From a virus: DNA of 64,000 nt. Location: positions 32,001-96,000 of IMG/VR virus record IMGVR_UViG_3300030107_008258; one strand, 5' to 3'. Under the pieces are notes generated by a model, which was given only the letters and a program-made list of their open reading frames with translations, did not search any database and had not been told where the DNA came from. Numbering within the stretch: position 1 is the first letter of the stretch; every line of letters starts with the position of its first letter. Positions 7,385 to 9,728 of this stretch are shown here, piece by piece. Both the position numbers and the translations under genes were made by a program.

Positions 7385-7800
7385 AAATTTACCTTTTTTG
7401 CAAAGTCTCCAAACGAGCACTCGCTATCTTGTTCCATATCAAAGATATAGCGATGATGGCTCTTAAACATACGAGGTAAAATTATAGAATATTCAACTAA
7501 ATCTTCAAAATTTTTTTCAAAAAAAATATTAGCGTCTCTAAATGGCTCTTCAGAAAGATTGTCAGATTTTAACCAAGTTTCTACCATGAAAGCAAAATTT
7601 ACGTCAAGATCAGAAGAAAAAAGGCGACTATCAAATCTGCAGATTTTTATTTCATAAGAAAAAATGGCTTCTAAATTATTAAAATTAAAATGAAGGAATG
7701 TTTTAACTGAAGTAGGATGGAGGTTAAGGGAAGCTCTATGACCGCAATAAGCTAAAAAAGGCTGGCAGCTTTTATCGATCAATGGCGAACCTTCAAACAT
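7357..7800 (-). CDS. Hypothetical protein
   Basis: 147-aa ORF overlapping both neighbours; no recognised motif. Confidence 0.55.
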   Translation of the reverse strand: MFEGSPLIDKSCQPFLAYCGHRASLNLHPTSVKTFLHFNFNNLEAIFSYEIKICRFDSRLFSSDLDVNFAFMVETWLKSDNLSEEPFRDANIFFEKNFEDLVEYSIILPRMFKSHHRYIFDMEQDSECSFGDFAKKVNLWKKSNGLS

Positions 7801-8386
7801 AAATATTTTTTACCCACTTTAATAAATTTCGACAATTAAGTATCTGTTTTTCTTCATCTGTTTCAGTGGGCCAGTTTAGTAGAAAATCTGAATCTAATTT
7901 CAATTTAGGATCGTTCCTTGACTCGGCTTCGTTAGCTGGCCTCATGAAAACTCTTTTATTATCGACTTCTTTGTACCGTGAAATATGAATTAATACCCCA
8001 TTAATCTCATTTTTTAACCAATAAACTTCATCTTTTTCATATTCATTAAATCTAATATCCGTAATAATATTTATTTTTTCGGGCGCCAATTCTTTATATA
8101 ATTCATTTACCCAATGCCTTCCGTTTGATAAGCTTCTTTTTATTTCTCCGTGCGCTACGAGCATTGGACGAATAATATCCTTTTCCTCCCGAGTACAATT
8201 AGACGAATCTATTCCATAAAGCTCACGGCTAGCTCCGCTTAATTCTTTTTTTAAATTATTTGCAATAGATAATTCCCTGTACGGTAATTCAAGTCTTTGC
8301 AATAATTTAATAATGATATTACATACCGTGTTTTTTCCACAACCAGCAACACCACTAATTCCAATATTCTTATATTTAAATTTCAT
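7793..8386 (-). CDS. Deoxynucleoside monophosphate kinase (T4 gp1-like)
   Basis: P-loop GVAGCGKNT, SIANNLK, RPMLVAHG, IITDIRFNE. Confidence 0.8.
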   Translation of the reverse strand: MKFKYKNIGISGVAGCGKNTVCNIIIKLLQRLELPYRELSIANNLKKELSGASRELYGIDSSNCTREEKDIIRPMLVAHGEIKRSLSNGRHWVNELYKELAPEKINIITDIRFNEYEKDEVYWLKNEINGVLIHISRYKEVDNKRVFMRPANEAESRNDPKLKLDSDFLLNWPTETDEEKQILNCRNLLKWVKNIYV

Positions 8387-8444
8387 TTAAATTCTATATA
8401 TTTAAATTAAATTAATTAAAATAAATATAATAAACTTTTCCCTA

Positions 8445-8715
8445 GAAAGTCGGAGTGAAACGAAGACTTTCCCCGTATCGGAGGCTATTCCGAACACCGG
8501 CAATCTTTCTTTTCCCTGAGATTACTCCCCGGTTAGCCTTTATGGGATACACGGTAGAACATATCCACTCTATATGACATCACCTTACCTACTGTCCCAA
8601 TGAAGCGCCTTTCTCACGCCAATTGGTTATCTCCGGTTGCAAGTCTTCACAGCATAGCCGGACGTTAGATTGCGGGGCCATCCACCTTTTAATGTCGTAG
8701 GATGACAATACGACC
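8445..8715 (-). ncRNA. Candidate structured non-coding RNA or long 5' leader with pseudoknots
   Basis: GC-rich island with no long ORF, starting 7 nt downstream of a sigma70-like -10 element. It has a 5' H-type pseudoknot and about 6 further helices whose G-U pairs favour the minus strand. Confidence 0.6.
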
Positions 8716-8721
8716 AGCAAT

Positions 8722-8750
8722 GTTTTACCCCGGTGGGGCCTGCTTGTCAA
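8722..8750 (-). promoter_or_regulatory. Sigma70-like promoter driving the candidate ncRNA and dNMP kinase operon
   Basis: TTGACA (8750-8745), 17-nt spacer, TAAAAC (8727-8722), A-tract upstream; predicted +1 at G8715. Confidence 0.6.
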
Positions 8751-8854
8751 CTTTTTTTAAAGAAGATTTTTGAAAAAAAATAAACAATGATCTTTTTCGG
8801 GGAAAATTTGCTTTTTTTATTGACTTTCCTCCCCTAAAACAAAATTATAAACGC

Positions 8855-9265
8855 ATGCGCCTTTCGTGGGAACAATACGCTTTAAACATTGCCTGCACTG
8901 TAGCTGAAAGAAGTGAAGATATTTATCAAAAAGTGGGCGCTTGCGCCTTAAATAAAAAAAATATGGTTATTGCAGTCGGCTATAACGGGTTAGCTTCCGG
9001 CAAGAAAGCTTCTCATAGATTCTTTCAAAATCGAAATCATCGTCGCCCTTTTATGATTCACGCCGAAGTCAACTGCTTAAGCCTTGTAAAGCGGGGGGAA
9101 GTTAAAATGCTTGCTTCTACCCTTCTGCCGTGTTCTTCTTGCGCTACAATGATAGCCGCCTATGGGGTTAAAAAGGTAATTTATAAAGAAATTTATAAAA
9201 GAGATAAAAGCGCATTAGAAATTTTTAAGTTTTACGGTATAGAATGTGTTCAATATGGAGATTAA
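8855..9265 (+). CDS. dCMP deaminase (ComEB/dCMP deaminase family)
   Basis: RSED...KVGA, GYNG, HAEVN and PCSSC zinc motifs. Confidence 0.9.
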   Translation: MRLSWEQYALNIACTVAERSEDIYQKVGACALNKKNMVIAVGYNGLASGKKASHRFFQNRNHRRPFMIHAEVNCLSLVKRGEVKMLASTLLPCSSCATMIAAYGVKKVIYKEIYKRDKSALEIFKFYGIECVQYGD

Positions 9266-9728
9266 ATACTCTAAGTTAAAAAATTCAGCTCAAACCCCCT
9301 TCCAAGCCAATAATTCAGATGCAGGTTACGATTTGTTTTCAACTGAATATTTAACTCTCGAGCCCTTCCAGAGAAAATTGGTTAGTACAGGAATAAATAT
9401 TGAAATTCCCCAAGGTTTTTATGGGAGAATTGCCCCAAGAAGCGGTTTAGCGTGTAAGAAAGGAATAGATGTAATGGCAGGAGTAATCGACTCCGGCTAT
9501 CGTGGCGAAATAAAAGTTTTGTTGATAAATTTAAATTTTGAAGGATATAATCTAACACCAAATGCTTTTGAAGCAGTGTTTGGATCGAGTAACAGAATAG
9601 AAATAAAACCGGGAGACAGAATAGCTCAATTAATAATTGAAAAATGCTATAACGTCGAATGGAAAGCAATGAAAACATTACAAACTTCCGAAAGAGGACA
9701 GGGCGGCTTTGGCAGCTCTGGAAAATAA
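9246..9728 (+). CDS. dut: dUTPase (trimeric)
   Basis: AGYDL, RIAPRSG, GVIDSGYRGE, GDRIAQL, RGQGGFGSSG. Confidence 0.96.
   Translation: MFNMEIKYSKLKNSAQTPFQANNSDAGYDLFSTEYLTLEPFQRKLVSTGINIEIPQGFYGRIAPRSGLACKKGIDVMAGVIDSGYRGEIKVLLINLNFEGYNLTPNAFEAVFGSSNRIEIKPGDRIAQLIIEKCYNVEWKAMKTLQTSERGQGGFGSSGK

What the first reader, a model, noticed from the sequence alone, without database searches (positions are those of the whole stretch)
8445..8750. Promoter-driven ~270-nt pseudoknotted RNA at the strand switch
Seen on the minus strand: TTGACA-17-TAAAAC puts +1 at G8715, right at the start of an H-type pseudoknot. Its stem is GUCGUA (8714-8709)/UACGAC (8699-8694), and loop GUCAUCC pairs with GGAUGGC (8683-8677). 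Further helices are UCCGG/CCGGA, CCAAU..GCGU/GCGC..AUUGG, GGAUAU/GUAUCC, CCGG..GUAAUCU/AGAUUGC..CGG and UCGGA/UCCGA. The segment UAGCCU in that last hairpin can pair with upstream AGGCUA (second pseudoknot or switch). A long-range CCCG/CGGG pair and a final GAAAGUC/GACUUUC helix follow. The stretch is GC-rich in an AT-rich genome and matches no tRNA, tmRNA, RNase P or intron I recognise. Inference: a novel phage ncRNA, a regulatory leader for the dNMP kinase-sigma operon, or a replication primer RNA.
Basis: partly seen in the sequence, partly recalled or inferred. Interest (0 to 1): 0.8.

Follow-up and report, generated by a model that had tools for sequence, protein, structure and literature searches.

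The report
New pseudoknotted RNA of marine phages
The GC-richer gap between two diverging early operons of this uncultured marine phage is a real, promoter-driven gene for a roughly 285-nt RNA with two pseudoknots; it belongs to an uncatalogued family kept in dozens of marine phage sequences, and its job is still unknown.

Summary
The finding is real. On the minus strand, 8715 to about 8430 encodes a ~285-nt structured RNA. I collected 35 distinct full-length homologues from viral and marine metagenome contigs. On their alignment, a 71-pair model is 98.9% paired, and 32 pairs show compensatory changes against 3-6 in slid controls.

What the comparison shows:
- Three proposed pairings are wrong or unsupported. 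A 10-bp long-range helix, a second pseudoknot and a further helix were missed.
- A TTGAC(A/T)-N17-TA promoter sits 36-38 nt before the first stem in all 35 sequences.
- No Rfam family, tRNA or tmRNA matches.

In most contigs the RNA heads the kinase-sigma operon. In others it precedes a convergent gene, or lies in a 50%-GC contig with a resolvase. Its similarity between contigs does not track that of the kinase gene. I therefore read it as a self-contained RNA module rather than a kinase-specific riboswitch.

Its function is unknown and no expression data could be obtained. The scan found the same family before in another genome (e1-5733763). Moderately high interest: it is a new RNA family of a known general kind, the large structured phage RNAs.

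The parts
8745..8750 (-). -35 hexamer of the RNA's promoter (TTGACA)
   Evidence: TTGAC(A/T), or TTGTCT in two contigs, lies 36-38 nt before the first stem in 35 of 35 distinct homologues. No transcript start has been measured.
8722..8727 (-). -10-like hexamer (TAAAAC), 17 nt after the -35
   Evidence: Every homologue has TA at this spacing, but the last base is not T, so the consensus scan did not call it. It would put +1 near 8715.
8677..8714 (-). 5' H-type pseudoknot: stem 8714-8709/8699-8694, and loop 8706-8700 paired with 8683-8677. A 2-nt first loop and an A-rich 10-nt linker (8693-8684) join them.
   Evidence: Helices 1 and 2: 10 of 13 pairs have changes on both sides, and 100% of cells are paired.
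8497..8676 (-). Long-range closing helix: 8676-8675 and 8673-8667 with 8506-8500 and 8498-8497. A conserved C/C mismatch sits at 8674/8499. The helix starts directly after the pseudoknot and encloses the core.
   Evidence: Helix 3: 4 of 9 pairs compensatory, 100% paired. C-to-U at 8676 goes with G-to-A at 8497 in 10 of 10 cases.
8632..8662 (-). Hairpin 8662-8658/8636-8632 with inner helix 8654-8652/8640-8638 and a conserved apical loop
   Evidence: Helices 4 and 5: 5 of 8 pairs compensatory.
8597..8626 (-). Variable-length hairpin 8626-8622/8601-8597
   Evidence: Helix 6: 4 of 5 pairs compensatory. The length varies between homologues.
8554..8592 (-). Second pseudoknot: 8592-8588 pairs with 8558-8554, in the loop of hairpin 8566-8562/8549-8545
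   Evidence: Helix 7: four pairs are invariant, and the fifth switches between G-U (16 sequences) and U-A (17). Helix 10 (the hairpin): 3 of 5 pairs compensatory.
8531..8584 (-). Helix 8584-8582 and 8578-8576 with 8538-8536 and 8533-8531, enclosing the second-pseudoknot hairpin
   Evidence: Helices 8 and 9 show one-sided changes only, all still pairing. The divergent copy L059 replaces both strands compatibly.
8509..8529 (-). Small hairpin 8529-8526/8521-8518 with a 4-nt loop, then the first copy of the invariant purine tract AGGGAAAAG (8517-8509)
   Evidence: Invariant in all sequences, partly because the search pattern enforced it. The pairing is untestable.
8475..8495 (-). Hairpin 8495-8490/8481-8475. 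In some relatives it carries a 20-25-nt insertion. A conserved A/G-C-C lies before its 3' strand.
   Evidence: Helix 12: 4 of 7 pairs compensatory. The 88.8% paired figure reflects alignment shifts around the insertion.
8430..8474 (-). Near-invariant 3' domain. It holds hairpin 8471-8465/8451-8445, mutually exclusive alternatives to that hairpin, and the second copy of AGGGAAAAG (8443-8435). Conservation ends at about 8430.
   Evidence: Only four variable columns among 35 sequences. One inner pair, 8461-8460 with 8456-8455, switches U-A to C-G in 4 sequences. RNAalifold prefers the alternative hairpins.
8387..8429 (-). Unconserved, almost pure A+T spacer between the RNA and the ATG of the kinase-like gene (7793..8386)
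   Evidence: In relatives, 16-58 nt separate the RNA's invariant 3' motif from the kinase-like ATG, and the sequence between is not conserved. No terminator-like site was found in 7800-9400.

Best explanation
SHOWN:
- 8715 to about 8430 (minus strand) is a gene for a ~285-nt non-coding RNA of an uncatalogued family.
- Its fold has a 5' H-type pseudoknot directly followed by a 10-bp long-range helix. That helix encloses three hairpins, a second pseudoknot and conserved A/G-rich joining strands. A further hairpin and an almost invariant 45-nt 3' domain follow.
- A conserved sigma-70-like promoter sits at a fixed distance, which would place the start at the foot of the pseudoknot.
- The RNA is a self-contained module. 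It keeps its own promoter in different gene neighbourhoods, and no protein gene near the RNA in the other contexts has a relative in this genome apart from the dCMP deaminase and dUTPase of L060. Its similarity between contigs does not track that of the adjacent kinase gene.

INFERRED:
- The RNA itself is the product.
- Host RNA polymerase makes it among the first transcripts after infection.
- It folds into a compact core locked by the pseudoknots.
- It acts through its invariant single strands, namely two copies of a 9-nt purine tract, a related G-rich tract and the 3' domain. These would bind a conserved partner that the phage does not encode next to it, most likely a host macromolecule.
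- This phage has no terminator before the kinase gene. The same transcript therefore probably runs on into the kinase-sigma operon, and the RNA then also forms that mRNA's structured 5' end.
For: - Structure: 98.9% of cells are paired, 32 of 71 pairs are compensatory, the covariation score is 0.363 against 0.05-0.10 in slid controls, and 0 of 500 shuffles reach it. RNAalifold independently finds the same main helices.
- Family: 10 viral contigs including the window's, 41 metagenome stretches and 3 MAG contigs, giving 35 distinct full-length sequences.
- Not a known family: no Rfam match in the window at gathering or at E up to 10, none in twelve homologue loci, and no tRNA or tmRNA.
- Promoter geometry is constant in 35 of 35 sequences.
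- Independence:
  - In L038 and L059 the RNA is followed by about 300 nt of non-coding DNA and then a convergent gene.
  - L056 and L058 are 50%-GC contigs with a resolvase, a tRNA gene (L056) and Ig/LRR proteins, and no kinase.
  - L060 keeps the deaminase side but not the kinase.
  - tblastn finds no shared protein between those contexts and this genome, except the L060 deaminase and dUTPase.
- Similarity to the window does not track the kinase gene. L004 is 92% identical in the RNA and 68% in the kinase; L003 is 72% and 78%.
- The RNA averages 78% nucleotide identity, against 69% for the neighbouring coding sequence.
- Related contigs L006 and L007 have the same promoter and kinase gene, but a different ~410-nt structured RNA with a terminator-like hairpin in the same slot.
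Against: - No transcript has been seen. Both ends are inferred from the promoter geometry and from where conservation stops.
- In 27 of the 35 distinct sequences a full kinase gene follows the RNA closely on the same strand, without a recognisable terminator. That is what a cis-acting leader looks like.
- Most homologues come from one syntenic phage lineage, so the count of independent contexts is small (about four).
- The 3' domain can form mutually exclusive hairpins, as regulatory switches do.
- No partner is known.
- The trans-acting mode is inference from context only.
Confidence: 0.55

Rival explanations
1. Cis-regulatory leader, either a riboswitch or a protein-binding operator. On this reading the folded core senses a ligand or a phage or host protein. 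It then sets which of the mutually exclusive 3' hairpins forms. That choice tunes transcription read-through, processing or translation of the dNMP-kinase / sigma-factor early operon.
For: - The RNA sits on the same strand directly upstream of the kinase-like gene in 27 of the 35 distinct sequences with a full kinase gene, and in all contigs of this lineage that reach far enough.
- No terminator lies in between.
- The invariant 3' domain can fold either as hairpin 8471-8465/8451-8445 or as two other hairpins. Invariance of both strands is what overlapping alternative structures would produce.
- The downstream genes are nucleotide metabolism and a sigma factor, which are plausible regulatory targets.
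Against: - The gap to the start codon is unconserved and varies from 16 to 58 nt. No Shine-Dalgarno is used in this genome. No intrinsic terminator is present. So no expression platform can be pointed to.
- The RNA occurs before a convergent gene (L038, L059), and in contigs without the kinase or sigma (L056, L058, L060).
- The slot-sharing type-2 RNA shows no such hairpin overlap.
- The alternative hairpins are weak (about -10 kcal/mol for the whole 3' domain) and no better than shuffled sequence.
Confidence: 0.25
2. Processive antitermination or transcript-protecting element. On this reading the nascent RNA stays with, or modifies, the polymerase that made it, as HK022 put or Bacillus EAR do. 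Alternatively its 5' pseudoknot simply shields the long early mRNA from 5'-end-dependent decay. Either way the very long co-oriented operon downstream would be fully expressed.
For: - It is the first thing transcribed from an early promoter, at the head of a run of at least five co-oriented genes. These are the kinase, a 147-aa ORF, the sigma factor, a 100-aa ORF and a glycosyltransferase.
- According to earlier unchecked notes, the run continues into a ~20-kb sugar-pathway cluster.
- Polysaccharide operons are classic targets of processive antitermination (established for EAR and RfaH).
- The structure begins right at the predicted 5' end.
Against: - In L038 and L059 a convergent gene follows within about 300 nt, so there is no long operon to protect.
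- At ~285 nt with two pseudoknots it is far more elaborate than put (about 70 nt) or EAR (about 120 nt).
- Rfam's EAR model does not match.
- No terminators were identified downstream that would need overriding (for 7800-9400).
Confidence: 0.1
3. Replication primer or R-loop origin. On this reading the structured transcript hybridises to the AT-rich DNA just downstream and primes leading-strand synthesis, as in ColE1 RNA II or the T4 oriF/oriG origins.
For: - The promoter and G-rich 3' tracts are followed by a nearly pure A+T stretch (8429-8387) at a site where transcription diverges.
- In L056 the RNA is likewise followed directly by about 45 nt of nearly pure A+T, and in L038, L059 and L060 by a conserved non-coding block with an AT-rich part.
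- There is a small local minimum of cumulative GC skew here.
Against: - Whole-genome cumulative GC skew declines steadily, with no global turning point at the locus. The local minimum simply follows gene orientation.
- No iterons or direct repeats beyond AT-rich chance matches were found.
- AT-rich untranslated spacers are the norm upstream of genes in this genome.
- No antisense regulator or initiator gene is evident.
Confidence: 0.06
4. Highly divergent member of a known RNA class that covariance models fail to recognise, such as RNase P RNA, tmRNA, a group I intron or SRP RNA.
For: Short sequence resemblances only. GGAAAGUC-like and AGGUAAGG-like strings recall conserved regions of RNase P RNA. 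This comes from my own recollection of the E. coli sequence and is not a test.
Against: - No Rfam match even at E up to 10 on the element, and none at E up to 5 in six homologue loci.
- ARAGORN finds nothing.
- The architecture is incompatible. The 5' and 3' ends do not pair. The GGAAAGUC-like string is in a local hairpin at the 3' end. There are no flanking exons, and the promoter abuts the first stem.
Confidence: 0.03

Closest known systems
Large 'ornate' RNAs of phages and prophages with unknown function (GOLLD RF02032, ROOL; cryo-EM work in bioRxiv 10.1101/2024.12.08.627333)
   Same: Like them, it is carried by phages and mobile DNA without a dedicated protein partner. It has many helices with strong covariation, pseudoknots and highly conserved unpaired nucleotides. 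Its function is also unknown.
   Different: At ~285 nt it is far shorter than those RNAs, which from memory are around 600 nt or more. No covariance-model match exists. It is not next to tRNA genes: there are none in the window, and the genome's one tRNA is about 98 kb away. It sits at the head of an early operon. Multimer formation is untested.
Phage T4 gene 32 mRNA leader (autoregulatory 5' pseudoknot)
   Same: It shares an H-type pseudoknot at the very 5' end of an early phage transcript, followed further downstream by an unstructured, very AU-rich run up to the start codon.
   Different: Here the pseudoknot is only the first 38 nt of a ~285-nt multi-helix fold. The downstream gene is a P-loop kinase, not a single-strand-binding protein. 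The RNA also occurs without that gene.
Cis-acting antitermination RNAs (HK022 put; Bacillus EAR)
   Same: It is promoter-proximal and the first RNA made, at the head of a long operon that includes glycosyltransferases.
   Different: It is much larger and differently folded. The EAR model does not match. The RNA also occurs where no operon follows.
ColE1 RNA II (structured replication pre-primer)
   Same: It is a promoter-driven, multi-hairpin RNA whose G-rich 3' part is followed by AT-rich DNA.
   Different: There is no antisense RNA I-like unit, no origin signature in GC skew and no iterons. Pseudoknots and invariant loops are not features of RNA II.

Membership tests
Any Rfam 15 family (4227 covariance models) | Match to the family's covariance model at or near its gathering score | tested here: not met
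   No gathering-level match in the 64-kb window. Nothing relevant at E up to 10 on 8300-8900. In six homologue loci the only gathering-level match is a tRNA at L056:5355-5428, outside the RNA copy. No match at E up to 5 in six more loci.
tRNA / tmRNA | Cloverleaf or tRNA-like domain with a tag reading frame, as detected by ARAGORN | tested here: not met
   ARAGORN finds 0 genes in the window. In the whole genome it finds only one tRNA-Cys, about 98 kb away.
RNase P RNA | 5' and 3' ends paired (P1), and a long-range P4 helix formed by conserved regions I and V | tested here: not met
   The covariation-supported model has no 5'/3' terminal helix. The CR-I-like string lies in a local 3' hairpin. 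No RNase P model matches.
Group I intron | Inserted between exons; P3-P7 pseudoknot core with a guanosine-binding site | tested here: not met
   A conserved promoter abuts the first stem, and an unconserved AT-rich spacer follows the last. No interrupted gene is present and no intron model matches.
Riboswitch (generic) | Aptamer coupled to an expression platform (terminator or start-site sequestering helix) | tested here: not met
   No terminator-like site. The gap to the ATG is unconserved and 16-58 nt long. No Shine-Dalgarno is used in this genome.
Riboswitch (generic) | Consistent association with genes of one pathway across unrelated genomes | tested here: not met
   The kinase-sigma operon follows only in one syntenic lineage. 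Other contexts have a convergent gene, Ig/LRR proteins or a long non-coding stretch.
Riboswitch (generic) | Specific binding of a small ligand | not testable with these tools
   Needs in-line probing or calorimetry.
GOLLD / ROOL-type ornate RNAs | Homology to those families | tested here: not met
   No match to their models. The resemblance is one of kind only.
GOLLD / ROOL-type ornate RNAs | Self-assembly into RNA-only multimers | not testable with these tools
   Needs native gels or cryo-EM.
ColE1 RNA II-like primer | Persistent RNA-DNA hybrid processed at an origin | not testable with these tools
   Needs RNase H-sensitivity or replication-intermediate mapping at 8430-8387.
ColE1 RNA II-like primer | Origin signature in the DNA (GC-skew turning point, iterons) | tested here: not met
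   Whole-genome GC skew has no turning point here, and no iterons were found.

The most novel reading that the evidence does not exclude
The RNA is a new functional class. It would be an immediate-early phage RNA that needs no dedicated protein gene and acts directly on a host machine or signal. It might be a ribozyme, an RNA that binds polymerase, ribosome or nuclease, or an aptamer that soaks up a defence signal. Unrelated phages and mobile islands would exchange it as a cassette, and at least one alternative RNA (the ~410-nt type in L006/L007) would fit the same slot.
Probability: 0.25. Interest if true: 0.85.

Novelty: new variant of a known kind. Interest (0 to 1): 0.62.

Why it matters
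- Complex, strongly conserved RNA folds with several pseudoknots and invariant unpaired nucleotides have usually turned out to be ribozymes, riboswitches or cores of ribonucleoproteins.
- This one is the first thing an abundant group of uncultured marine phages would transcribe.
- It moves between genomes independently of protein genes.
- In sister phages its slot is filled by a different large RNA.
- Finding its partner would reveal an RNA-based step of early phage infection in the ocean. That step could be host takeover, counter-defence or control of the phage sigma factor.
- It would also add a well-defined ~285-nt family, with a testable structure, to the short list of large structured RNAs carried by phages.

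Tried and rejected
- **Expression data:** no RNA holder was listed for 7800-9300. Laying the two metatranscriptome contig sets from the same sample gave no cover at all. Nothing can be said about transcription.
- **Single-sequence thermodynamics:** the MFE is no better than shuffles (z = +0.39), so it is useless here.
- **Cultured relatives:** no DNA match of the element and no protein match of the sigma-like gene in the phage collection. The RNR large subunit is below 50% identical to cultured phages.
- **Covariance model:** One earlier attempt failed on a mistyped structure. As a substitute, an nhmmer profile found a single copy in the 144-kb genome and no sequence-level match in L006/L007.
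- **Protein partner by co-occurrence:** none is shared between the alternative contexts and this genome.
- **Host assignment:** the GC-richer end of the record (126-144 kb) has no DNA match in the three MAGs that carry the RNA.
- **Shine-Dalgarno mimicry by the purine tract:** the genome shows no Shine-Dalgarno signal. The 9-mer occurs four times in the genome, two of them inside the RNA.
- **TTTTC-N3-4-GAAAA as a repeated operator:** the upstream inverted repeat has the same arm type as the last hairpin, but it is not enriched in the window.
- **Coding reading:** the 53-aa ORF 8589..8750 starts inside the -35 hexamer. Indels of 5, 8 and 20-25 nt, together with the pair covariation, rule out a conserved frame.
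- **Literature:** two full-text searches and a term search within the 2023 phage structured-RNA catalogue (PMC10690425) turned up no description of this element. Its supplementary tables were not searched.

Full report
**Setting**

The window is bases 32001-96000 of a 144-kb IMG/VR virus record. The flagged stretch lies between two diverging gene sets.
- On the plus strand are a dCMP deaminase (8855..9265) and a dUTPase.
- On the minus strand are a P-loop kinase-like gene (7793..8386; PHROG deoxynucleoside monophosphate kinase, E = 7e-14), a 147-aa ORF, a sigma-70-like protein, a 100-aa ORF and a glycosyltransferase.
- GC reaches 47% at 8500-8699, against 28-39% on either side.

**Is it known?**

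- Rfam 15 gives nothing at gathering thresholds over the whole window. Only chance-level hits to unrelated families appear at E up to 10 on 8300-8900.
- Six homologue-bearing loci give only one tRNA elsewhere. Six more give nothing at E up to 5.
- ARAGORN finds no tRNA or tmRNA.
- The phage collection has no similar DNA.
- The single sequence folds no better than its shuffles (z = +0.39). All the evidence has to be comparative.

**Homologues**

- The kinase protein led to six viral contigs. Four of them carry a clearly alignable non-coding block upstream.
- Exact-pattern scans with two invariant blocks found nine other viral contigs in all, 41 metagenome stretches (many from Tara and other marine samples) and three contigs binned into MAGs.
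- After removing duplicates and truncated copies, 35 distinct full-length sequences remain, 275-304 nt from the first stem to the last conserved base. The divergent copy L059, which lies outside this set, is 319 nt.
- One caveat applies. The metagenome pattern forces invariance of 8531-8509, and all sequences come from exact-match scans. The family's true diversity is therefore under-sampled.

**Structure**

I placed a 71-pair model on the 35-sequence MAFFT alignment. It came partly from RNAalifold and partly from inspection and a pair-scan script.
- 98.9% of cells form standard pairs, and 32 pairs have changes on both sides.
- Sliding the 3' partners by 1-3 columns drops this to 31-45% paired and 3-6 such pairs.
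- None of 500 column shuffles reaches the observed covariation score.

The elements, in window coordinates on the minus strand:
- Stem 8714-8709/8699-8694.
- Its loop 8706-8700 pairs with 8683-8677, a classical H-type pseudoknot with a 2-nt first loop and an A-rich 10-nt linker.
- A long-range helix starts directly after the pseudoknot: 8676-8675 and 8673-8667 with 8506-8500 and 8498-8497, with a conserved C/C mismatch.
- Inside that helix:
  - Hairpin 8662-8658/8636-8632, with inner helix 8654-8652/8640-8638.
  - A variable hairpin, 8626-8622/8601-8597.
  - Helix 8584-8582 and 8578-8576 with 8538-8536 and 8533-8531.
  - Within that, hairpin 8566-8562/8549-8545. Its loop (8558-8554) pairs back to 8592-8588, forming a second pseudoknot.
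  - A 4-bp hairpin, 8529-8526/8521-8518.
  - An invariant purine-rich joining strand.
- After the long-range helix comes hairpin 8495-8490/8481-8475, which carries a 20-25-nt insertion in some relatives.
- Last is a 45-nt 3' domain (8474-8430) with only four variable columns.

The divergent copy in L059 replaces both strands of the 8584/8531 helix compatibly and inserts an extra hairpin.

- The pseudoknot and four hairpins are right.
- The segment 8506-8500 was given the wrong partner. With 8525-8519, about half the sequences would have a U/U mismatch and no change is compensated. With 8673-8667, three pairs covary.
- The loop-to-8539-8534 pairing is contradicted by an uncompensated G-to-A change at 8537, which fits the helix with 8577 instead.
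- The last hairpin is invariant and so untestable. RNAalifold prefers two alternative hairpins that exclude it. All of these are weak.

**Promoter**

- TTGAC(A/T), or TTGTCT in two contigs, lies 36-38 nt before the first stem in all 35 sequences. A TA-starting hexamer follows after a 17-nt spacer.
- The -10 lacks the usual final T, so the consensus scan missed it.
- A start at about 8715, at the foot of the pseudoknot, is therefore a well-grounded inference and not an observation.

**Leader or gene?**

For a leader:
- In every contig of this lineage that reaches far enough, the kinase gene starts 16-58 nt after the conserved 3' end. A full kinase gene is present in 27 of the 35 distinct sequences.
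- No terminator-like site lies in between.

For an independent module:
- *Unconserved gap.* The gap to the kinase ATG is unconserved, almost pure A+T and of variable length. The genome uses no Shine-Dalgarno. So there is no recognisable expression platform.
- *Convergent gene.* In L038 and L059 the RNA is followed by about 300 nt of another conserved non-coding block and then a convergent gene.
- *Contigs without the kinase.* L056 and L058 are 50%-GC contigs with a serine recombinase, a tRNA gene (L056) and Ig/LRR proteins. L060 keeps the deaminase side but has 1 kb without ORFs downstream.
- *No shared neighbouring proteins.* No protein from those neighbourhoods has a relative in this genome, except the L060 deaminase and dUTPase.
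- *Similarity does not track the kinase.* L004 is 92% identical in the RNA and 68% in the kinase; L003 is 72% and 78%. That points to exchange of the RNA as a cassette.
- *A different RNA in the same slot.* L006 and L007 have a homologous promoter and kinase gene. Between them lies a different ~410-nt structured RNA, with compensatory changes even between the two copies and a terminator-like hairpin near its end.

I therefore rank 'self-contained RNA module whose product is the RNA' first, at 0.55. In this phage it probably also forms the 5' end of the operon mRNA.

**Rivals**

- A cis-regulatory switch remains a serious alternative (0.25).
- A put/EAR-like antitermination or 5'-protection role is possible (0.10), but it does not fit the convergent-gene contexts.
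- The primer/origin idea has only the AT-rich DNA downstream in its favour. The whole-genome GC skew shows no turning point and there are no iterons.
- A disguised known RNA is very unlikely.

**Expression**

No RNA run was listed as holding the stretch, and the two metatranscriptome contig sets from the source sample gave no cover. This says nothing either way.

**Earlier scan notes**

- A follow-up on another genome (e1-5733763) describes what is evidently the same family: a ~290-nt RNA with pseudoknots, in marine phages and a mobile island, of unknown function.
- My analysis was done before I saw that note, and it agrees. I could support two pseudoknots by covariation, not three.
- Other notes describe further large RNAs at the head of early genes in marine phages. 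Those may correspond to the L006/L007 type, but this was not checked.

**Verdict**

Its function is open. It is one more large structured phage RNA, but a compact and experimentally tractable one, in an interesting position.

Noticed in passing
L006:2565-2975 and L007 (same region): Sister phage contigs have the same promoter and the same kinase gene, but a different ~410-nt GC-rich structured RNA in the slot. It has 102 predicted pairs, 7 of them compensatory between just two copies. It also has a terminator-like hairpin near its 3' end and a closing TTTTTC-CTT-GAAAAA hairpin like the one at the end of the window's RNA. nhmmer sees no sequence homology to the window's RNA.
   Followed up: partly
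L060:1240-1500; L038, L059 and L056 downstream of their RNA copy (alignment A6): In contexts without the kinase, the RNA is followed by a second conserved non-coding block of about 200-230 nt. The block starts with a GCCCC...GGGGC hairpin with a long loop. A short conserved ORF beginning MSRKSL follows. This may be another RNA or a regulatory region.
   Followed up: partly
window 8794-8806: An inverted repeat, TTTTC-GGG-GAAAA, lies between the two diverging promoters. Four homologues carry a near-identical version. Its arms resemble the last hairpin of the RNA (8449-8435). It might be an operator. The motif is not enriched elsewhere in the window.
   Followed up: partly
window 8820-8857 (+): The dCMP deaminase gene starts only about 6 nt after a TTGACT-17-AATTAT promoter-like site. 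Its mRNA may therefore be leaderless.
   Followed up: no
genome 128-144 kb (outside the window; locus L063): The last ~15 kb of the record rises to 45-51% GC and holds the genome's only tRNA (tRNA-Cys, 139135-139208). IMG/VR calls the record a provirus, so this could be host flank. It has no DNA match in the three MAGs that carry the RNA.
   Followed up: partly
whole genome: The 30 nt upstream of 90 long ORFs show no Shine-Dalgarno signal. They are A/T-rich, with almost no G at -1 and -2. This suggests a host that initiates translation without Shine-Dalgarno pairing.
   Followed up: partly
L056:4011-4652, L056:5355-5428, L058:3727-4368: The 50%-GC contigs that carry the RNA, one of them binned as Verrucomicrobia, have a serine recombinase within about 1.5 kb of it. 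L056 also holds a tRNA gene about 2.8 kb away. Together this looks like a mobile island or a different temperate phage.
   Followed up: partly
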